Assembly: GCA_964597145.1 (NCBI GenBank)
Contig: CAZQWH010000001.1
Location: 166,441-230,440 of the forward strand
Reading direction: 5' to 3'
DNA from: an uncultured Candidatus Saccharibacteria bacterium
Lineage (GTDB): Bacteria; Patescibacteriota; CAZHWT01
Length of the DNA: 64,000 nt
Below the pieces are notes generated by a model that made no database searches, was not told the origin of the DNA, and worked only from the letters and a program-made list of their open reading frames with translations. Numbering within the stretch: the first letter of the stretch is position 1; the number at the start of each line of letters is the position of its first letter. The position numbers and the translations under genes are program-made. Positions 19,693 through 26,815 of this stretch are shown here, piece after piece.

Positions 19693-20514
19693 TTAGTCTA
19701 TCTTATTTGTCTTAGAGTTAGGCTCAATCCGCTGGTCGAGGCGCTCAATGTGGGTTGCATTACCGTTAGTGTCGGTTTGGATCAGGACCGAACGAAAGTC
19801 AACCGGCCCTTCCTCCTCAGTTTCAAAACGATGGGGAGTCTGATGCATTTGAATCGAAATAATAGTTTCTGTCTTAACCCCCAACACGCTATTAAAGGGG
19901 CCAGTCATGCCAATATCAGTAACATAGGCGGTGCCTTGGTTAAGCAAAGTGGCGTCGGCTGTTGGAATGTGGGTGTGGGTGCCAACCACAGCTGAAACCC
20001 GACCATCTAGGTACCAGCCCAGGGCAACTTTTTCAGAAGTTGCTTCAGCATGAACGTCAACTAAAACTGCTTGATATTCATCTCGTGGATGCTGTTCCAA
20101 CAGCGCGTCAACACAGCGGAACGGATCGTCGGTTAAGTCACGCATAAAAACCCGACCTTGAAGATTAAGCAACAAAATTTTACCCTTCGCCCCTAAGTCA
20201 ACCTCTAGCCACCCCTTACCCTTAGCTCCACTTGGATAGTTAGCTGGTCGTGTACCCGGAACAGAGCCTTCATCGAGAGCATCAATAAAATCGGGGAACT
20301 TCCAAACATGGTCGCCATTAGTAAACGCATCTACCCCGGCTTGCATCATCAACTCAATACCATGCACCGAAGCGCCACGACCCTTGGAGGACAAATTATC
20401 GGCATTGGCAATAACCGCGTCGATATGTTTATCCTGCTTAATTTGTGGTAGTAATTTCATTACCGCTTTCCGACCAGGATTACCAACAATATCACCAATA
20501 TATAAAATATTCAT
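19693..20514 (-). CDS. ymdB: YmdB-family metallophosphoesterase (TIGR00282; 2',3'-cyclic nucleotide phosphodiesterase-like)
   Basis: MNILYIGDIVGNPGRKAVMKLLPQIKQDKHIDAVIANADN...GDHVW is a canonical YmdB N-terminus. Same strand as rny. Confidence 0.8.
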   Translation of the reverse strand: MNILYIGDIVGNPGRKAVMKLLPQIKQDKHIDAVIANADNLSSKGRGASVHGIELMMQAGVDAFTNGDHVWKFPDFIDALDEGSVPGTRPANYPSGAKGKGWLEVDLGAKGKILLLNLQGRVFMRDLTDDPFRCVDALLEQHPRDEYQAVLVDVHAEATSEKVALGWYLDGRVSAVVGTHTHIPTADATLLNQGTAYVTDIGMTGPFNSVLGVKTETIISIQMHQTPHRFETEEEGPVDFRSVLIQTDTNGNATHIERLDQRIEPNSKTNKID

Positions 20515-20563
20515 TCGTAAATCTCCGTAATTTTCCTGCTAAAAATAATATCCTGTATCTATA

Positions 20564-21193
20564 CTACATTACCGTAACCTGCGCAAGGTGTGGTGGCTCG
20601 AGTGTCAAAGATAAAGAGTCGGGAAGGGTGGGCAACTGGTCAACCTCAATCGGAATCCGGCCAAGCGTTATGTGCGGGTTAAACACCCTCGGGGGAGCGT
20701 GGTGTAAATTGCGGCTCTTTTCTATAAAGCTAATTGGCTCATTTGTAAGATGTTTGGCTAAATTATGGGTCACGATAGTAAATATCTCTCGATGTATTTG
20801 GTCAATAGACTCATTACGAATTATACTCAAGGCTACTGCCGGGCTCCTAGCGCTGCCGTAGAGATTAAGATGCTCTGCTTCAACCCCAATTTCATCCTCG
20901 ATGCTCTGGGTGAAAGAATAAAGGTCTTGTAATAACTCAGTAAACAGTCCCATAAATGAGTCATAAGTAAGCTCAGGGTTAACGCGACGGTACTCAAAAT
21001 AAAGATCTTGAGGAATACCAAGATGAATAAGCGTCAAATGAAGGTAATCTGAATCTTTAGCCCTAAAATCTGGTACTGTATCCTGAATAATCCTCTGAAC
21101 TTCTAGTAATGCTCCTAACTCCTTTGGCTTTTGTTCCACCGTCACCCTCAAATGGCGGCCGTTAGCCTTGCGATTTACCCTCAACTGCATCAT
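20564..21193 (-). CDS. 2H phosphoesterase superfamily protein (LigT/CPDase-like)
   Basis: Two H-x-T-x motifs, HLTL (LHLTLIHLG) and HITL (PHITLGRIP), spaced about 110 residues apart. Confidence 0.55.
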   Translation of the reverse strand: MMQLRVNRKANGRHLRVTVEQKPKELGALLEVQRIIQDTVPDFRAKDSDYLHLTLIHLGIPQDLYFEYRRVNPELTYDSFMGLFTELLQDLYSFTQSIEDEIGVEAEHLNLYGSARSPAVALSIIRNESIDQIHREIFTIVTHNLAKHLTNEPISFIEKSRNLHHAPPRVFNPHITLGRIPIEVDQLPTLPDSLSLTLEPPHLAQVTVM

Positions 21194-21726
21194 AAGTGCT
21201 TGTTAATTTGCTGCAGGTACGCTTTAAATTCATCCATATTTGTTACCTTATGCTCCAAGACCGCCGTATATAAGTCTAAACTGCTAACACCACGGTGATA
21301 CCTGTCACTGGCTGCTAAGATTTGTTTTAGCTCAAGAATGATAGACTTATTTTCGTCAGTGATTTTGGAGGCTATCCGATCGAGCAGGTTGCGACGCTTG
21401 GTGGCTTCATCGCCTTCTATCAGCCAAATATCCACCTGCCACTTAAGGTCGTGGTGGGTTATATCTGGGCCCAGATAAATACCCTGCGGCATAGTAGGCT
21501 GACCGAGATGGTTAGCAATGGTGACTCGAGCCACTTGAGGCAAATCAAGCAGCTGGGCAAGAATAGGTAGCGTCGCGGTGTTAGTCGGCCTATCCTTGGT
21601 GACAACTTCGATATCAATATCAGGCCAGACCATTAACCCCATCTTGGCACTGCCAGTTAAGCTAGGCCGACCAACAGGACTCAATATTTGAAACAGCTTA
21701 AGCTCGGCCAAGAGCTGTTGGACCAA
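21190..21726 (-). CDS. GrpB/UPF0157-like nucleotidyltransferase-fold protein
   Basis: GSAKMGLMVWPDIDIEVV fits the GrpB GS...KP-IDI-V signature. 4 bp ATGA overlap with the 2H gene. Confidence 0.45.
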   Translation of the reverse strand: MVQQLLAELKLFQILSPVGRPSLTGSAKMGLMVWPDIDIEVVTKDRPTNTATLPILAQLLDLPQVARVTIANHLGQPTMPQGIYLGPDITHHDLKWQVDIWLIEGDEATKRRNLLDRIASKITDENKSIILELKQILAASDRYHRGVSSLDLYTAVLEHKVTNMDEFKAYLQQINKHL

Positions 21727-21805
21727 CGACTGAAGCTCTATTTGGCGTTCAAATAATTGGGATCGGTTGAGCCCCAGGTTAGCCTGTTTTATGCACTACT
21801 CCTGG

Positions 21806-23323
21806 TTACTTGGCAATATCATGGGCTCTGGTTTCGCGAACAACCGTGACTTTTACTTGACCAGGATAGGTAACGGAATCATGAATTTTTTCCGCTACAT
21901 CATGGGCTAGAATTACCATCGCCGAATCATCAACATCTTCTGGCTTAACAATTACTCGAACCTCTCGGCCAGCCTGAATCGCATATACTTTATCTACACC
22001 GTGGAATCCAGAAGCTACATTCTCAATATCTTTGAGCCGTTTAATGTAATCTTCGACACTTTCATGGCGAGCACCTGGACGGGAGCCAGAAATCGCATCA
22101 GCAATGTAGCCAATCACCGACTCAACAGATGAAAATGGCTTATCTTCATGGTGTTCAGCAATAATATTGACCACCTCTTGCGGAAAGCCCATCTTTTCGG
22201 CAAACTTTACTCCAAGTTCTATATGAGTCCCTTCCTCGTCAGTAAATACTTTCCCAATATCATGCAATAATCCGCCTAAGCGCACCGTGTTAACATCGGC
22301 GCCAATTTCTCGAGCCAAAGCCATACCAATCTTAGTTTCTTCTAGGGTATGAGTCAGCATATTTTGGCCATAGGAGAAGCGGTATTTGAACTTACCTAAA
22401 GCATCAACTACTTCACGCGGCAAGTTATAGGCTCCCACGTCATGCGCTAGTTTCTCTCCAGCATCACGCATAATTTTATCAACTTCTTTAGTCTTTTTAG
22501 CAACCACTTCTTCAATTCGCGTCGGTTGGATCCGCCCATCCTTAAGTAATTCTTCTAAAGAAAGGCGAGCAATTTCGCGCCGAACACCATCAAAACTTGA
22601 AAGGCGGATAATTCCCGGAGACTCATCCACATCAACGTCAACCCCTGTAGCCATTTCAAACGCTTTAATGTTACGGCCCTCTTTGCCAATAATCCGACCC
22701 TTTGCATCCTCATCGGGGAGTTTAACCACCGAAGTAGTATGTTCGCTAACATAGTCAGTTGCGCCATGCTTCATCGCGTCAACCAGCAATCTCTGGGCCT
22801 TTTCTTCTACCGAATCTTTAATTGACTGCTCAGATTCCTTAATTCTCCGGGCTTTCTCATCCTTTAGCTTGGCATTCATTGCCTCCATAATGATTTTCTT
22901 AGCTTCATCCCGACTCATTTTAGCCGCCCGCTCCAACTTAGAGAGCTGTTCAACTTTAATTTCTTCTAACTCCTTCAGACGAGCGTTAACTTCTTCGAAT
23001 TGAGCATCTAACTCAGTATCTTTTTTATCAACGTCGGCTAATTTTTTATCAAGCGATTCCTCTCGCCGTTGAACTTTGCGCTCAAATTCAAGCGCTTCTT
23101 GGTGGTGTTGACGAGCTAAATCCTCAGCCTCATGCTTAATTTTAAGGGCCTGATCTTTAGCTTCAAGTATGATTTCACGGGCTTTGGCCTCGGCCTCAGA
23201 TATGCCGCCAACTGTATTTACCTCAGTAGTAGGTTGCTTGCTAGTTTGTCGGGTATAGAGATAATAGGCGGCCAAAATGAGAGCTCCTGCCGCCAGCAGG
23301 ATATAGAATAAATCTTGTGACAT
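21806..23323 (-). CDS. rny: Ribonuclease Y
   Basis: N-terminal TM helix, a coiled-coil region, KH domain (GRIIGKEGRNIKAFE) and HD domain (LLHDIGK). Confidence 0.95.
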   Translation of the reverse strand: MSQDLFYILLAAGALILAAYYLYTRQTSKQPTTEVNTVGGISEAEAKAREIILEAKDQALKIKHEAEDLARQHHQEALEFERKVQRREESLDKKLADVDKKDTELDAQFEEVNARLKELEEIKVEQLSKLERAAKMSRDEAKKIIMEAMNAKLKDEKARRIKESEQSIKDSVEEKAQRLLVDAMKHGATDYVSEHTTSVVKLPDEDAKGRIIGKEGRNIKAFEMATGVDVDVDESPGIIRLSSFDGVRREIARLSLEELLKDGRIQPTRIEEVVAKKTKEVDKIMRDAGEKLAHDVGAYNLPREVVDALGKFKYRFSYGQNMLTHTLEETKIGMALAREIGADVNTVRLGGLLHDIGKVFTDEEGTHIELGVKFAEKMGFPQEVVNIIAEHHEDKPFSSVESVIGYIADAISGSRPGARHESVEDYIKRLKDIENVASGFHGVDKVYAIQAGREVRVIVKPEDVDDSAMVILAHDVAEKIHDSVTYPGQVKVTVVRETRAHDIAK

Positions 23324-23403
23324 GTTATGCGTCCTTGTCTGTTCATGATGAATATTTTACCAGAGTCGGGCAGCCTATCCAAGTCAATGCTAAACGGGGG
23401 GCG

Positions 23404-24138
23404 CTAAAGTCGCTTCGAGTTATCATCCTGGAGTAACTCTTGAGTAACTTGGTTAATAACATCCCAATCAAAGCCCCTTCCGGCCAGGTAACGCGATAAT
23501 TTTTGTTTCTGTTCATAATTTGAGAGTTGATTATGCTTTTTGAGGTACTTAGTCGCCAGCTGGGTAGCAGCTTCGGCTTCATTAAATTCCGTCAACTCAC
23601 TGCTAAAGTGCCCTTCCTCGCGCGGGGTCATTAAGGCGGCTTCAATGTCGGCAGTAGAAACACCCTTGGCTTTGAGTTCTAATAGGAGCAGTCGCTTGCC
23701 ACGAGGACGAAATCGCTGCCGATTGGTAATCCACCATCGAGCGAAGGCAACATCATCAATATACCCTGCCTCAGTTAGTCGAGCCATAACCTGCTCAATG
23801 CTGGTCTGTTGTTCGGCAATAAAGCGCAGTCGAGAATCCGATTGGGAGTTATGTGTATAATCGGGGTGTTTATAAATCAGCTTCTGGCGCAAATACTGTA
23901 AAATTTCCCGGCTCGATCGAGGTCTAACCGACAGGAAATTTAGTGACTTATCATAAGCTTGGCGAAAGGCATCGGCCGCCTTAAGCTCGGCAACTTGTGA
24001 TTCGGTAACTTCTTGGTTTTTTTGTAAACGATGTTGAAGAAGAACTTCAATATGTAAGCCAAAAGCAAACTGGCCATCCACATAAATATTTACCCGGTCG
24101 CCATTTTTTTGTTGTGTGGCAATGTCGGTGATCTTCAT
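23404..24138 (-). CDS. recX: Regulatory protein RecX
   Basis: Three-repeat helical protein, 244 aa, immediately upstream of rny in the same orientation. The N-terminal pattern ...VNIYVDGQFAFGLHIEVL... is RecX-like. Confidence 0.6.
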   Translation of the reverse strand: MKITDIATQQKNGDRVNIYVDGQFAFGLHIEVLLQHRLQKNQEVTESQVAELKAADAFRQAYDKSLNFLSVRPRSSREILQYLRQKLIYKHPDYTHNSQSDSRLRFIAEQQTSIEQVMARLTEAGYIDDVAFARWWITNRQRFRPRGKRLLLLELKAKGVSTADIEAALMTPREEGHFSSELTEFNEAEAATQLATKYLKKHNQLSNYEQKQKLSRYLAGRGFDWDVINQVTQELLQDDNSKRL

Positions 24139-24311
24139 AGTAAAACGTATTATACTCTCTCACAGAAGACAGCAAATTCTTAAGCAATTTTCAGGCAAGC
24201 GTTCTGAAGTAATGTTATCCACATGAAAAATTGAGTAAGAAATTTATCCGAGTAAATTTGAGTGTAACGTTGTTACAGTTTTAACGCCATTGGTTTGGAA
24301 TTGCAATCAAA

Positions 24312-24857
24312 TTGGGATTAGGTCAATATAGGTGCATAACTAATTTGTCTATGCCTTTTGCCTCTGCCCTGGCTCAAATTTCTCCAAACTCATCTTCTAT
24401 AACATCTACTAGCTGTCAACTATTACGCCCCGGCCAAAGGTTCGAATTAGTATCACTCACCATCCACCAAGATTCCACCGATGCGGTCTTCTTTGCCCGT
24501 CAAGACTGTTTAATTACAAGTCGTTTCCCTGGGTTTGAGACTCAATTATTAGAACTATTGCCGCACTTGCTCGATAATGTAAAGTGCTTTAACGGCCACA
24601 ATCACCATTTTGCCACCGAAATGCTAGCCACCGAAATGGGTCACCTATTTGAGCATATTTGGTTAGAAGTACTTTGCACGGAAAAGTTGAAGCACTCGCC
24701 CAAAGCTCATTATGCCGGGGAAACCAGTTGGAATTGGCGTCAAGATCCGCGGGGCATGTTCCATATTCACTTAAATGCCGGCATTGAAGACCGGGAGTTT
24801 ATTGAGCGCTCAGCAATAATGAGCAAGGTCATTTTAGACAAAGTTTTATCTCGGTAA
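24312..24857 (+). CDS. Hypothetical His-rich protein
   Basis: 181-codon ORF with a His cluster (GHNHHF...GHLFEH). Start is uncertain. Confidence 0.3.
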   Translation: MGLGQYRCITNLSMPFASALAQISPNSSSITSTSCQLLRPGQRFELVSLTIHQDSTDAVFFARQDCLITSRFPGFETQLLELLPHLLDNVKCFNGHNHHFATEMLATEMGHLFEHIWLEVLCTEKLKHSPKAHYAGETSWNWRQDPRGMFHIHLNAGIEDREFIERSAIMSKVILDKVLSR

Positions 24858-24995
24858 TTCCCTCCATAAAACCTATATCTGCAATAGCTGCTTAGTTTTT
24901 GCCTTGACAGTGGTAAATAATAGATGTTAGTCTGGAGTTAATCTATTATTATTCTTGTAGACTGCCCCTCTATATTAAGGGAGGTGAATTTTTCC

Positions 24996-25268
24996 GTGAC
25001 TAAGTCAGAATTAATCGAAATAGTAGCCAAGCAGGCTAAATTAACCAAGAAAGCTTCTAAGGAAGCGATTGAGGCCATGACGACTACCATTGAAAAATCG
25101 TTAGCCAAAGGCGACAAGGTGACCGTAACTGGTTTTGGTACATTTGTGGTTCGTAAGCGTGCTAGCCGCAAAGGCCGCAATCCCCAGACTGGTGAGTCTA
25201 TGCAGATCCCAGCTACCAAAACTCCAGCCTTTATTGCTGGTACCAGCATGAAGAATCGGGTTAAGTAA
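24996..25268 (+). CDS. hup: DNA-binding protein HU
   Basis: GTG at 24996, 8 nt after AAGGGAGGTGA. VTKSELIEIVAKQAKLTKK...GFGTFVVRKRASRKGRNPQTGESMQIPA is canonical HU. Confidence 0.9.
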   Translation: MTKSELIEIVAKQAKLTKKASKEAIEAMTTTIEKSLAKGDKVTVTGFGTFVVRKRASRKGRNPQTGESMQIPATKTPAFIAGTSMKNRVK

Positions 25269-25293
25269 CAGATTATTTGGAATGTAGATGTGT

Positions 25294-25322
25294 AAAGCAG
25301 AGCAGGAAGCTGCTCTGCTTTT
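25294..25322 (+). terminator. Rho-independent terminator after hup (AAAGCAGAGCAG-gaag-CTGCTCTGCTTT-TGTGT)
   Basis: 12 bp stem plus a T-rich tail. A second hairpin at 25343-25373 probably terminates the convergent MazG-like gene. Confidence 0.6.
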
Positions 25323-25379
25323 GTGTATACAGACATCTCTAATCCCTCTACTAACTAAGCAAGTAGAGAGGGGACAGTT

Positions 25380-25715
25380 CTACCCACTGGGCTTCTCCAG
25401 AACGCCTTGGCGTCGAAGATTAATTTTGGCTCGGTTCTGCTGCAGCCGGTCGGTGAAGGCTCGCTCTAAGTCGACACCATGAGCCAGGGCTAATCCGGCA
25501 GCGTAGTAAAGCAAGTCGGGGATAACCTGGGTTTCAATCACATCGGTGGATGGCTCTAGGCCATGTTCCCGCGGCTCCACAACGTTGCCCATTTTCCCCA
25601 TAAGCTTGGCCAAGTGTTCCAAAATATGACGGGTGTAGCTCGGTTCATCTTTAGCAGCGTGCCAGTAGGCATCTTCATGTTCTTGCACCATTTGCAAGAT
25701 TTGTTCGATCGTCAT
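25380..25715 (-). CDS. MazG-like nucleotide pyrophosphohydrolase (all-alpha NTP-PPase)
   Basis: ATG at 25715 preceded by AGGAGG. EHLAKLMGKMGNVVEPREHG...DLLYYAAGLALAHGVDLERAF matches the MazG EEXXE/D helical pair. Confidence 0.55.
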   Translation of the reverse strand: MTIEQILQMVQEHEDAYWHAAKDEPSYTRHILEHLAKLMGKMGNVVEPREHGLEPSTDVIETQVIPDLLYYAAGLALAHGVDLERAFTDRLQQNRAKINLRRQGVLEKPSG

Positions 25716-25819
25716 TAGCCACCCTCCTTGCTTGTAAATCGATCGTGCCAGCATTATAGCATTGTCTTTCTCTAAGGGATAAATAAAGAGCCGGAGTAAT
25801 CAGTGCTATAATCGGGCCG

Positions 25820-26815
25820 ATGAAAAAATTATTAGCTATAGTTGGGCCAACCGGAATAGGTAAAACTGCTTTGGCAATTGAAATGGCCCAAAAATATAAT
25901 GGCGAGCTAATCTCGGCGGATAGCCGCCAAATTTATATTGGCATGGATATTGCTACAGGCAAAGAAGTTGCAGCAGGTCAATGGCAACAACGGCGAGGTC
26001 AAAAAGCCCTGGTTATTGCTGATGTGCCGATTTTTGGTCTAGACTTGGTTCAACCAGATCAAGAGTTTTCGGTATTCGACTGGATGCAATTAGTGCGATC
26101 AGTTATTGATAAAATCCTGTCAGATGGAAAACGGCCAATTATAGTAGGCGGGACTGGCTTCTACCTCCAGGCATTACAAGGCAAAATTGCTACCTTGCAG
26201 GTACAGATTAACCACGAGCTGCGGCACAATTTAAACCAACTGTCAGTCGAAGGGTTGCAAGAAAAATTGCAACAAATTGATGCGGTTAAGTGGAAATCCC
26301 TCAATAGCCCAGATCAGAGTAACCCCAGAAGGCTAATCCGAGCAATAGAAGTTGCCTTGCAGTCTACGACTGCAGAATACAAAGGGCTGGATGTGGATAG
26401 CGGATTGGGACAAAAGTCACAAAGTTGGAAAGACGGCTCCCCATCCTCTACTCCCCACTCCTTCCACATGCTAGGTTTAACCATGGAGCGAGATATATTG
26501 TATGCCAAAGTAGATGCCCGGATAGAGCAAATGTTTGCCCAAGGGCTAATCGAGGAGACGCGGCACTTAGTAGCTAAATATAGTCGACAGCTGCCAGCCA
26601 TGAGCGGAATAGGTTACGCTGAATCAGCTGCATACTTAGCGGGTGAGACGTCTCTAGAAAAAGCAATCCAAGAAGTAAAATGGCGCACCCATGCCTACAT
26701 TCGACGACAATACACCTGGTTTCGCAAGCAAGAAGTGCAGTGGGTAGATGTTGGCCAACCCAGTTGGCACAAGGCGCTTCAGGCTATAATTAAATCAGTT
26801 GGCACAAGGCAATAA
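25820..26815 (+). CDS. miaA: tRNA dimethylallyltransferase
   Basis: MKKLLAIVGPTGIGKTALAIEMAQKYNGELISADSRQIYIGMDIATGK is the MiaA P-loop. ATG lies 7 nt after GTGCTATAAT. Confidence 0.9.
   Translation: MKKLLAIVGPTGIGKTALAIEMAQKYNGELISADSRQIYIGMDIATGKEVAAGQWQQRRGQKALVIADVPIFGLDLVQPDQEFSVFDWMQLVRSVIDKILSDGKRPIIVGGTGFYLQALQGKIATLQVQINHELRHNLNQLSVEGLQEKLQQIDAVKWKSLNSPDQSNPRRLIRAIEVALQSTTAEYKGLDVDSGLGQKSQSWKDGSPSSTPHSFHMLGLTMERDILYAKVDARIEQMFAQGLIEETRHLVAKYSRQLPAMSGIGYAESAAYLAGETSLEKAIQEVKWRTHAYIRRQYTWFRKQEVQWVDVGQPSWHKALQAIIKSVGTRQ

What the first reader, a model, noticed from the sequence alone, without database searches (positions are those of the whole stretch)
20564..21726. GrpB-like nucleotidyltransferase-fold protein + 2H phosphoesterase cassette inserted inside the conserved rny-ymdB pair
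RNase Y (21806-23323) and the YmdB 2',3'-cyclic-nucleotide phosphodiesterase (19693-20514) are normally adjacent. Here two translationally coupled genes (ATGA overlap) lie between them on the same strand. The first has the GS...DIDxE NTase signature (GrpB/UPF0157-like). The second has two HxTx motifs (LigT, 2',3'-cyclic or 2'-5' phosphodiesterase fold). An NTase with a 2H enzyme recalls nucleotide-signal synthase/degrader pairs such as 2'-5' oligoadenylate synthetase with 2H phosphodiesterases, and RNA-end healing pairs. Embedded between an endoribonuclease and a cyclic-phosphate phosphodiesterase, the four genes could form an uncharacterised RNA-end or cyclic-nucleotide processing module.
Basis: partly seen in the sequence, partly recalled or inferred. 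Interest (0 to 1): 0.6.

Follow-up and report, generated by a model that had tools for sequence, protein, structure and literature searches.

The report
Nucleotidyltransferase and 2H phosphoesterase inside rny-ymdB operon
In a Saccharibacteria-like genome, a nucleotide-adding enzyme from an undescribed family and a LigT/Usb1-like phosphoesterase sit inside the RNase Y-YmdB operon; the placement recurs in related genomes, which hints at an RNA-end function that has not been shown.

Summary
On the minus strand the order is rny (21806-23323), gene A, gene B (20564-21193), ymdB (19693-20514). No terminator-like site lies between them.

- **Gene A:** a Pol-beta-fold nucleotidyltransferase with G47-S48, D58xD60 and D121, invariant in 80 homologues. 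The AF2 model has pLDDT 95. It matches no Pfam or NCBIfam family, and no member matches GrpB. It most likely starts at ATA 21792, 6 nt after an AGGAG, not at TTG 21726.
- **Gene B:** a divergent 2H phosphoesterase with H52-L-T-L and H174-I-T-L. The top 43 PDB fold hits are all 2H enzymes.
- **Linkage:** A sits right after rny in six related loci. Four of these also carry B; in the two without B, A overlaps the ymdB start. B is seen next to A only there.
- **Variability:** the slot diverges far more than its flanks. Window versus L008: rny 95%, ymdB 89%, A 36%, B 58% identity. Two A types are distributed against the flank phylogeny.
- **Outside this lineage:** neither family is linked to rny, ymdB or the other. 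A occurs after lepA in other CPR loci, and beside APH, MFS or MarR genes in Firmicutes, Actinomycetota and Chloroflexota.

The best reading is a lineage-specific accessory pair acting on RNA 3' ends or RNA-derived nucleotides, analogous to TUT1/Usb1. That function is inferred, not shown.

The parts
21806..23323 (-). rny, RNase Y (505 aa); first gene of the inferred operon
   Evidence: TIGR03319 E 1e-164; Pfam RNase_Y_N, KH_1 and HD. A promoter-like site lies at 23354-23381 (minus) in the recX-rny spacer (consensus match only).
21790..21803 (-). Probable ribosome-binding site AGGAG (21799-21803) and non-canonical ATA start codon (21790-21792) of gene A
   Evidence: Homologues start MKQANLGLN. 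The window reads TAG-TGC-ATA-AAA-CAG-GCT-AAC, i.e. *-C-I-K-Q-A-N, in frame with A. A homologue in L103 has V (probably GTG) at the same position. The start is inferred, not shown.
21190..21792 (-). Gene A: 200-aa Pol-beta-fold nucleotidyltransferase of an undescribed family with no Pfam match (ORF as listed: 21190-21726, TTG start)
   Evidence: AF2 pLDDT 95.2, pTM 0.89. Foldseek against PDB returns NF90/NF45, Cid1, GLD-2, TUT7, OAS, CdnE/CdnC, RelP and the CCA-adding enzyme, with E 1e-5 to 1e-3 and TMq 0.5-0.6. No Pfam or NCBIfam family matches.
21607..21654 (-). Nucleotidyltransferase signature G47-S48 ... D58-I-D60-I-E62 of gene A; the third carboxylate D121 is at 21430-21432
   Evidence: G47, S48, D58, D60 and D121, plus W118, K156 and Y165, are invariant in an 80-sequence alignment. 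The strand and helix positions in the model fit the Pol-beta core.
20564..21193 (-). Gene B: 209-aa divergent 2H phosphoesterase; its start overlaps the stop of A (ATGA)
   Evidence: Pfam 2_5_RNA_ligase2 E 7.9e-5 and LigT_PEase E 2.2e-4, both below the gathering score. Relatives reach the gathering score. AF2 pLDDT 75. The top 43 Foldseek PDB hits are all 2H enzymes, including TT0787, LigT, PH0099, Usb1, drCPDase, AKAP18 and MHV ns2.
21029..21040 (-). First HxTx motif of B (H52-L-T-L)
   Evidence: H52 is nearly invariant and T54 invariant in a 45-sequence family alignment; both are invariant in close homologues.
20663..20674 (-). Second HxTx motif of B (H174-I-T-L)
   Evidence: H174 is invariant in the 45-sequence alignment.
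20555..20566 (-). Conserved 12-nt element TAGTATAGATAC (the B stop codon plus 9 nt; near-palindrome GTATA/GATAC), function unknown
   Evidence: Identical in all four B-carrying loci although the B proteins are 45-62% identical. Unique in the window and absent from the other 100 loci.
19693..20514 (-). ymdB, YmdB-type metallophosphoesterase (273 aa); last gene of the inferred operon
   Evidence: PF13277 E 1.6e-88. It follows B after a 49-nt spacer containing GGAG. No terminator-like site lies on the minus strand between rny and ymdB.

Best explanation
**What it is (shown).** rny-A-B-ymdB is a four-gene, same-strand, tightly packed unit in a Saccharibacteria-like (Patescibacteria) genome.
- A is a catalytically intact Pol-beta-superfamily nucleotidyltransferase from an undescribed family of about 200 aa.
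- B is a divergent LigT/Usb1-like 2H phosphoesterase with both HxT motifs.

**How it most likely works (inferred).** The pair is a lineage-specific accessory to RNase Y-initiated RNA turnover.
- A transfers a nucleotide from an NTP onto an RNA 3'-OH, or onto an RNA-derived nucleotide.
- B cleaves or heals the corresponding phosphodiester or 2',3'-cyclic-phosphate ends, as Usb1 trims TUT1-added tails and as LigT/ThpR opens 2',3'-cyclic phosphates.
- YmdB removes 2',3'-cyclic nucleotide products.

**Core and add-on.** A is the conserved resident of the slot. B is an add-on found in one subclade.
For: **Gene identities**
- The flanking genes and both inserted genes are identified by family searches, alignments, models and fold searches.

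**Operon features**
- A and B overlap by ATGA.
- An AGGAG lies just after the rny stop.
- The B-ymdB spacer is 49 nt with GGAG.
- No terminator-like site lies on the minus strand, and the G+C content matches the flanks.

**Recurrence in related loci**
- Window: rny-A-B-ymdB.
- L008: rny-A-B-ymdB.
- L099: rny-A-B-ymdB followed by a P-loop kinase.
- L089: rny 3' end-A-B.
- L001 and L090: rny-A-ymdB, with an ATGA overlap between A and ymdB.
- These loci span ymdB identities of 67-90%.
- The A+B pair was seen four times, always directly after rny.

**Other CPR context**
- A directly follows the translation GTPase gene lepA, with overlapping start and stop in L040 and L072 and an 85-nt gap in L020.

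**Fold neighbours**
- For A: terminal uridylyl and adenylyl transferases (Cid1, TUT7, GLD-2).
- For B: LigT, CPDases and Usb1.

**B-family fusion**
- One B-family protein, P0222, is fused to an AAA_33 P-loop kinase. This is the kinase plus cyclic-phosphodiesterase layout of RNA end-healing enzymes.

**Literature**
- TUT1 and USB1 act in sequence on the U6 snRNA 3' end, leaving a 2',3'-cyclic phosphate (PMC13219678, PMC6265477).
- In B. subtilis, ymdB is adjacent to rny and subject to polar effects from it (PMC3297567).
- It has been suggested that YmdB acts on nucleic acids (PMC6123443).
Against: - There is no biochemical evidence.
- A is small and has no recognisable RNA-binding domain.
- A is not basic: pI ranges from 4.8 to 7.9 across homologues.
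- TM-scores to terminal transferases are only 0.5-0.6.
- Outside this lineage, the A family shows no link to rny, ymdB or 2H genes in about 90 loci. It often sits near APH-family kinase, beta-lactamase-family, GNAT, MFS or MarR genes, which suggests small-molecule chemistry.
- B is missing from two of the six rny-linked loci.
- RNase Y, an HD-domain metal-dependent enzyme, is expected from established knowledge to leave 3'-OH ends. It does not itself supply 2',3'-cyclic phosphates.
- In densely packed CPR genomes, operon membership may partly reflect packing rather than shared function.
Confidence: 0.4

Rival explanations
1. A is a small-molecule nucleotidyltransferase acting on an antibiotic, xenobiotic or metabolite. 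It merely rides in a well-expressed housekeeping operon, and B is an unrelated 2H enzyme that landed beside it.
For: - The architecture is an NTase core plus a short helical C-terminal domain of about 200 aa, with neutral to acidic pI.
- In non-CPR genomes A lies beside three different subfamilies of APH-type kinases, a beta-lactamase-family gene, GNAT, VanY, MFS and MarR genes.
- No neighbour is conserved across the whole family.
Against: - None of the 80 members matches any NCBIfam model, and that library includes the resistance nucleotidyltransferase families.
- The top fold hits are RNA and nucleotide transferases, not aminoglycoside transferases.
- Six related loci keep A exactly between rny and ymdB with start/stop overlaps, and three further CPR loci place it directly after lepA.
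- APH-family and MFS genes are very common in soil bacteria, so their adjacency is weak evidence (inference).
Confidence: 0.25
2. This is a nucleotide-signal synthase and degrader pair. A makes a 2'-5' or 3'-5' linked oligonucleotide or alarmone-like signal. B, together with YmdB, hydrolyses it, as 2H enzymes degrade 2'-5' oligoadenylate or cyclic oligonucleotides.
For: - Fold hits for A include OAS1/OAS3, CdnE, CdnC, RelP and the SpoT synthetase domain.
- Fold hits for B include MHV ns2 and AKAP18.
- One B relative gives a weak Acb1 Pfam hit, E 0.0056.
Against: - The RelP and SpoT alignments have rmsd of 10-15 A.
- A lacks the C-terminal domain of OAS and CD-NTases, being 200 aa against 300-400 aa.
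- Neither A nor B matches any PADLOC profile.
- No effector or receptor gene is nearby.
- B is absent from two loci and from all non-Saccharibacteria A loci.
Confidence: 0.1
3. This is a conflict or selfish cassette, such as a toxin-antitoxin-like, immunity or defence module. It occupies a hypervariable slot, and the position next to rny is incidental.
For: - The slot diverges far more than its flanks. Window versus L008: rny 95%, ymdB 89%, DHH-family gene 87%, but A 36% and B 58%.
- Two A types (about 192 aa and 202 aa) are distributed against the flank phylogeny.
- A MITE-like element sits in the same spacer in L001.
- A 12-nt element is conserved at the B boundary.
Against: - No PADLOC match.
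- No HEPN or other known partner of NTase toxins or antitoxins is present.
- A occurs as a stand-alone gene in hundreds of genomes.
- G+C content is the same as the flanks, and no mobility genes are present.
- Catalytic residues of both enzymes are strictly kept.
Confidence: 0.1
4. A is a protein nucleotidylyltransferase that AMPylates or UMPylates RNase Y, YmdB or another partner, and B removes the modification.
For: - Some Pol-beta-fold enzymes modify proteins, for example GlnE, GlnD and MntA (established knowledge, not tested here).
- The operon linkage and translational coupling to ymdB are consistent with this.
Against: - No specific similarity to these families was found.
- 2H enzymes are not known as de-AMPylases (established knowledge).
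- This reading is purely speculative.
Confidence: 0.05

Closest known systems
Non-canonical terminal nucleotidyltransferases (Cid1, TUT7, GLD-2, TUT1) of the Pol-beta superfamily
   Same: - These are the best structural neighbours of A.
- A shares the GS, DxD and third-Asp catalytic set.
- A helical region follows the core and carries an invariant Lys and Tyr (K156, Y165).
   Different: - A is about 200 aa against more than 300 aa.
- No PAP-associated or RNA-binding domain was detected.
- TMq is only 0.5-0.6 and sequence identity 12-19%.
- No sequence-level match exists to any solved structure.
TUT1 + Usb1 (U6 snRNA 3'-end tailing and trimming)
   Same: It pairs a Pol-beta nucleotidyltransferase with a 2H phosphoesterase acting on the same RNA 3' end, and a 2',3'-cyclic phosphate is involved (PMC13219678, PMC6265477). 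Usb1 is among the top fold hits of B.
   Different: - The TUT1/Usb1 system is eukaryotic and its genes are unlinked.
- The resemblance rests on fold class only.
- No activity is shown for A or B.
- B is equally close to LigT and CPDase enzymes.
LigT/ThpR RNA 2',3'-cyclic phosphodiesterase (2H superfamily; Pfam LigT_PEase and 2_5_RNA_ligase2)
   Same: B has two HxT motifs, a 2H fold and a similar size.
   Different: - The window protein scores below the Pfam gathering scores.
- It scores far below the TIGR02258 cut-off: 21 bits against 65.7.
- B belongs to a separate subfamily of about 136 representative clusters, with extra conserved positions R16, H57 and N162.
GrpB/UPF0157 family
   Same: Both are Pol-beta-type folds with a local motif resembling GS-x-x-x-GL-x-x-x-P-D-I-D-I. 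One UniRef record names a homologue 'GrpB family protein'.
   Different: None of the 80 family members hits Pfam GrpB at E<=1. The only weak hits are NTP_transf_2 (6 of 80), Polbeta (4 of 80) and DUF4269 (2 of 80).
B. subtilis rny-ymdB operon
   Same: The flanking genes and their order are the same. ymdB is adjacent to rny and affected by polarity from it (PMC3297567).
   Different: Here two extra enzyme genes lie between rny and ymdB. This arrangement did not turn up in the one literature search made for it.

Membership tests
Pol-beta-like nucleotidyltransferase superfamily (gene A) | hG[GS] motif followed about 10 residues later by DxD/E on the next strand | tested here: met
   G47-S48 and D58-I-D60-I-E62. 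G47, S48, D58 and D60 are invariant in 80 sequences.
Pol-beta-like nucleotidyltransferase superfamily (gene A) | Third catalytic carboxylate on a later beta-strand | tested here: met
   D121 is invariant and lies in strand 116-126 of the model.
Pol-beta-like nucleotidyltransferase superfamily (gene A) | Alpha/beta nucleotidyltransferase core fold | tested here: met
   The AF2 model has pLDDT 95. The top 50 Foldseek PDB hits, 46 of them at E<=1e-3, are all Pol-beta-fold or related enzymes.
GrpB/UPF0157 (Pfam PF04229) | Match to the family profile | tested here: not met
   The window protein gives no hit, and none of the 80 family members hits at E<=1. A profile-profile comparison was not available.
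GrpB/UPF0157 (Pfam PF04229) | Closest structural neighbours are GrpB structures | tested here: inconclusive
2H phosphoesterase superfamily (gene B) | Two H-x-T/S-x motifs | tested here: met
   H52-L-T-L and H174-I-T-L. T54 and H174 are invariant and H52 nearly invariant in 45 sequences.
2H phosphoesterase superfamily (gene B) | 2H fold | tested here: met
   The top 43 Foldseek PDB hits are all 2H enzymes. The model is of moderate quality: pLDDT 75, TMq 0.4-0.5.
2H phosphoesterase superfamily (gene B) | Pfam LigT_PEase or 2_5_RNA_ligase2 at the gathering score | tested here: inconclusive
   The window protein scores 21.8 against 23.3 and 23.2 against 27, both below the cut-off. Relatives P0126, P0130, P0131, P0133 and P0135 pass.
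ThpR/LigT equivalog (TIGR02258) | Score above the curated cut-off | tested here: not met
   21 bits against a cut-off of 65.7.
CBASS CD-NTase, OAS or other known defence systems | Match to defence-system profiles, plus an adjacent effector | tested here: not met
   Neither A, B nor three A homologues hit any PADLOC profile at E<=1. No effector-like gene is adjacent.
Antibiotic nucleotidyltransferases (ANT and Lnu families in NCBIfam) | Match to a curated resistance family model | tested here: not met
   None of the 80 family members matches any such model at E<=1.
Terminal uridylyl/adenylyl transferases (Cid1/PAP type) | PAP-associated (PAP/OAS1 substrate-binding) domain after the catalytic domain | tested here: not met
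   No Pfam hit to such a domain. The protein ends after four short helices at residue 200.
Terminal uridylyl/adenylyl transferases (Cid1/PAP type) | Template-independent nucleotide addition to an RNA 3'-OH | not testable with these tools
   This needs an enzyme assay.
rny-ymdB operon | RNase Y and a YmdB-type phosphoesterase on the same strand, co-transcribed | tested here: met
   Both genes are identified. They share a strand and no terminator-like site lies between them. Transcription itself was not tested.

The most novel reading that the evidence does not exclude
A and B form a bacterial counterpart of the eukaryotic TUT1/Usb1 system, physically wired to RNase Y. It would be a minimal 200-aa terminal nucleotidyltransferase that tails RNA 3' ends, with a 2H enzyme that trims or heals them. 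If so, the wider A family in Paenibacillus, Clostridium, Actinomycetota and Chloroflexota would be an unrecognised class of bacterial RNA-tailing enzymes. That matters for RNase Y-type bacteria whose tailing enzyme is not known. The two divergent A types and the fast-evolving B would then point to conflict-driven diversification of RNA-end marks.
Probability: 0.15. Interest if true: 0.75.

Novelty: new variant of a known kind. Interest (0 to 1): 0.45.

Why it matters
- **An experimental handle on YmdB.** The physiological substrate of YmdB, and its relation to RNase Y, are still open questions in B. subtilis (PMC6123443). A lineage that repeatedly places a nucleotidyltransferase, and sometimes a 2H phosphoesterase, between rny and ymdB gives a concrete lead. 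If A and B act on RNA ends or RNA-derived nucleotides, that argues YmdB does too.
- **A family worth describing.** This roughly 200-aa nucleotidyltransferase family matches no Pfam or NCBIfam model and is spread over several phyla (188 hits).
- **If ordinary.** If A turns out to be a small-molecule transferase, the finding reduces to an unusual operon insertion in reduced genomes.

Tried and rejected
**Searches that gave nothing useful**
- Pfam and NCBIfam on A gave nothing specific, for the single protein and for 80 members.
- Profile searches of A and B against PDB sequences gave only chance-level hits.
- PADLOC found nothing.
- A Foldseek search of A against viral structures returned only generic nucleotidyltransferase-fold ORFans.
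- Literature searches found nothing on this family or on this operon variant.

A narrower alignment returned only two loci, neither carrying A.
- The genome scan pattern for A (LM[VT]W[PR]D...) misses the 192-aa type, which has LMAWPD. The count of rny-linked loci in genomes is therefore an underestimate.

**Ideas rejected**
- GrpB membership: no profile match.
- Foreign-island origin by composition: the G+C content equals the flanks.
- MNT-HEPN toxin-antitoxin: no HEPN-like partner was seen.
- TTG 21726 as the true start: it would remove a conserved N-terminal helix covering residues 10-30 of the model.
Full report
**1. Observation**

On the minus strand the window carries five genes in a row:

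| Gene | Coordinates | Evidence |
|---|---|---|
| recX | 23404-24138 | RecX HTH domains 1-3 |
| rny | 21806-23323 | TIGR03319 E 1e-164; RNase_Y_N, KH, HD |
| ORF A | listed as 21190-21726 | see below |
| ORF B | 20564-21193 | see below |
| ymdB | 19693-20514 | PF13277 E 1.6e-88 |

- The stop of A overlaps the start of B (ATGA).
- A 49-nt spacer containing GGAG separates B from ymdB.
- No terminator-like site lies on the minus strand between rny and ymdB. The only promoter-like match upstream is in the recX-rny spacer (consensus scans only).
- The G+C content of A and B (0.42-0.50) matches the flanks.

**2. Corrected gene model for A**

- Homologues are about 202 aa and begin MKQANLGLN.
- In the window the same frame continues upstream of the TTG without a stop: TAG-TGC-ATA-AAA-CAG-GCT-AAC, i.e. 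*-C-I-K-Q-A-N-L-G-L-N.
- The codon aligned with the homologues' Met is ATA (21792-21790). An AGGAG lies 6 nt upstream, immediately after the rny stop.
- A homologue in L103 has Val (probably GTG) at that position.
- Starting at the TTG would remove most of a predicted N-terminal helix, residues 10-30.
- I therefore take A as 21190-21792 (200 aa), with an inferred non-canonical start.

**3. What A is**

- A has no Pfam or NCBIfam match.
- A profile built from close homologues found 188 proteins. None carries a precomputed Pfam domain. Sources include Thermomicrobiales, Microlunatus, Paenibacillus, Nitriliruptor and Chloroflexi.
- A genome scan added Clostridium, many Actinomycetota, Chloroflexia and several Patescibacteria lineages.
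- In 80 aligned sequences, G47, S48, D58, D60, W118, D121, K156 and Y165 are invariant. These include the GS, DxD and third-Asp set of Pol-beta-type nucleotidyltransferases.
- The AF2 model is very confident: pLDDT 95.2, pTM 0.89.
- Foldseek against the PDB returns only nucleotidyltransferase-fold enzymes, with E 1e-5 to 1e-3 and TMq 0.5-0.6. The list includes NF90/NF45, Cid1, GLD-2, TUT7, OAS, CdnE/CdnC, RelP/SpoT-synthetase and the CCA-adding enzyme. The RelP and SpoT alignments have high rmsd.
- Scanning all 80 members against Pfam gave only weak hits: NTP_transf_2 (6 of 80), Polbeta (4 of 80) and DUF4269 (2 of 80). None hit GrpB.
- None of the 80 hit any NCBIfam model, including the resistance nucleotidyltransferase models.
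- No defence-system profile matched.
- A is therefore a catalytically intact member of the Pol-beta superfamily in an undescribed family. The 'GrpB-like' label fails the one membership test I could run.

**4. What B is**

- B scores just below the gathering thresholds of 2_5_RNA_ligase2 and LigT_PEase, and far below the ThpR equivalog cut-off.
- Only four close homologues exist among 5.8 billion proteins.
- An exhaustive profile search found 136 representative relatives, mostly stand-alone proteins of 190-215 aa. Several of these pass the Pfam thresholds.
- T54 and H174 are invariant. H52, H57, R16 and N162 are nearly invariant.
- The AF2 model is moderate, pLDDT 75. Its top 43 PDB matches are all 2H enzymes: TT0787, LigT, PH0099, Usb1, drCPDase, AKAP18, MHV ns2 and plant CPDase.
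- One relative, P0222, is fused to an AAA_33 P-loop kinase. This is the kinase plus cyclic-phosphodiesterase arrangement of RNA end-healing enzymes.

**5. Neighbourhoods**

Six loci with the window's synteny place A directly after rny:

| Locus | Arrangement | Notes |
|---|---|---|
| window | rny-A-B-ymdB | A of the 202-aa type |
| L089 | rny 3' end-A-B | A of the 202-aa type; short contig that ends just after B |
| L008 | rny-A-B-ymdB | A of the 192-aa type |
| L099 | rny-A-B-ymdB-kinase | A of 189 aa; AAA_18/33 kinase downstream |
| L001 (same contig as L009) | rny-480 nt-A-ymdB | named Candidatus Saccharibacteria MAG |
| L090 | rny-A-ymdB | A of the 192-aa type |

- In L001 and L090 the A stop overlaps the ymdB start.
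- The A+B pair was seen four times, always in this position.
- By ymdB identity the loci form two groups: window, L008 and L099 at 87-90%, and L001 and L090 at 78%. Identity between the groups is 67-71%. B occurs only in the first group.

Elsewhere the linkage disappears.
- Among about 90 other A-family loci, none has rny, ymdB or a B-family gene within about 6 kb.
- No neighbour is conserved across the family.
- In three other CPR loci A directly follows lepA.
- In non-CPR genomes A is often near APH-family kinases, a beta-lactamase-family gene, GNAT, MFS or MarR genes.
- A B-family member in L096 lies between obg and a photolyase gene, with no A present.

**6. The slot is unusually variable**

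| Comparison | rny | ymdB | DHH-family gene | A | B |
|---|---|---|---|---|---|
| window vs L008 | 95% | 89% | 87% | 36% | 58% |
| window vs L099 | 83% | 88% | n/a | 36% | 45% |

- The 192-aa and 202-aa A types are sister clades in a rough neighbour-joining tree.
- The 202-aa clade also contains Thermomicrobiales and other non-rny-linked sequences (no support values).
- Each flank-defined group contains both A types, so the A allele has been exchanged at least twice.
- The catalytic residues are kept throughout.
- L001 carries a MITE-like element in the rny-A spacer, with 27-nt inverted repeats 231 nt apart.

**7. Mechanism**

Shown:
- The gene identities, the catalytic motifs and the compact same-strand layout.
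- The recurrence of rny-A-(B)-ymdB in one lineage.

Inferred:
- Co-transcription of the four genes.
- A function tied to RNA turnover.

The most coherent model has three steps.
- A nucleotidylates RNA 3' ends, or RNA-derived nucleotides.
- B cleaves or heals phosphodiester or 2',3'-cyclic-phosphate ends.
- YmdB clears cyclic nucleotides.

The closest analogy is TUT1 plus Usb1 on U6 snRNA (PMC13219678, PMC6265477). In B. subtilis ymdB is adjacent to rny and affected by polarity from it (PMC3297567), and a nucleic-acid substrate for YmdB has been suggested (PMC6123443).

Against this model:
- A is small, not basic (pI 4.8-7.9) and lacks any RNA-binding module.
- The contexts of its relatives elsewhere look like small-molecule chemistry.
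- B is dispensable in two of the six loci.
- RNase Y itself should leave 3'-OH ends (established knowledge).

I put about 0.4 on the RNA or nucleotide-end reading and 0.25 on a hitch-hiking small-molecule transferase. Smaller weights go to a signal synthase and degrader pair, a conflict cassette, and protein nucleotidylylation.

**8. Novelty and verdict**

- Both enzymes belong to known superfamilies.
- New here are the undescribed nucleotidyltransferase family, its conserved residence inside the rny-ymdB operon of a Saccharibacteria-like lineage, its pairing with a private 2H subfamily, and the allele turnover in the slot.
- I rate it a new variant of a known kind, with moderate interest (0.45).
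- The gene identities are solid, the linkage is real but lineage-restricted, and the function is untested.

Noticed in passing
window 21790-21803 (minus strand): Gene A appears to start at a non-canonical ATA codon, 6 nt downstream of an AGGAG and 13 nt after the rny stop. The conserved N-terminal 22 residues lie upstream of the first ATG/GTG/TTG. A homologue in L103 has Val (probably GTG) at the same position.
   Followed up: partly
window 20555-20566 (minus); L008 2291-2302; L089 1301-1312; L099 2843-2854: The 12-nt sequence TAGTATAGATAC consists of the stop codon of B plus 9 nt and is a near-palindrome (GTATA/GATAC). It is identical in all four B-carrying loci although the B proteins are only 45-62% identical. 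It is unique in the window and absent from the other 100 loci. It could be a promoter, an operator, a processing site or a cassette boundary.
   Followed up: partly
L001 3866-4150: The 480-nt spacer between rny and A in the Saccharibacteria MAG holds a MITE-like element. Its 27-nt inverted repeats are 93% complementary and 231 nt apart.
   Followed up: partly
window 21178-21198 (minus); protein P0001: The public gene call for this same gene (P0001) starts at an internal ATG and ends KHLWCSWG. It reads the two TGA codons as Trp, so the caller apparently applied the wrong genetic code to that contig.
   Followed up: no
L040 4235-6603; L072 4301-6615; L020 2853-5301: In other CPR-type loci (Daviesbacteria and two MAGs labelled Gammaproteobacteria), the A-family gene directly follows lepA (EF4). 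The start and stop overlap in L040 and L072.
   Followed up: partly
L092 4259-5221; L101 2599-3573; L093 9320-10327; L103 2039-3031; also L043, L026, L010: APH-family kinases of three different subfamilies lie next to, or within 3 kb of, A-family genes in non-CPR genomes. Beta-lactamase-family, GNAT and VanY genes are also nearby in some. This may hint at small-molecule chemistry, or it may simply reflect how common these genes are.
   Followed up: partly
protein P0222; L099 3934-4416: One B-family 2H domain is fused to an AAA_33 P-loop kinase (P0222). In L099 a 160-aa AAA_18/AAA_33 kinase gene follows ymdB. This is reminiscent of kinase plus cyclic-phosphodiesterase RNA end-healing modules.
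   Followed up: no
window 23404-26815 versus L090 1153-4147: The block recX / cyanophycin_syn-like ORF / HU / miaA upstream of rny is inverted in the window relative to L090. As a result rny follows recX here but follows miaA there.
   Followed up: no
proteins P0158, P0196, P0201, P0223: Very large proteins of 777-1962 aa carry a C-terminal B-type 2H domain. Pfam assigns nothing to the rest of these sequences.
   Followed up: no
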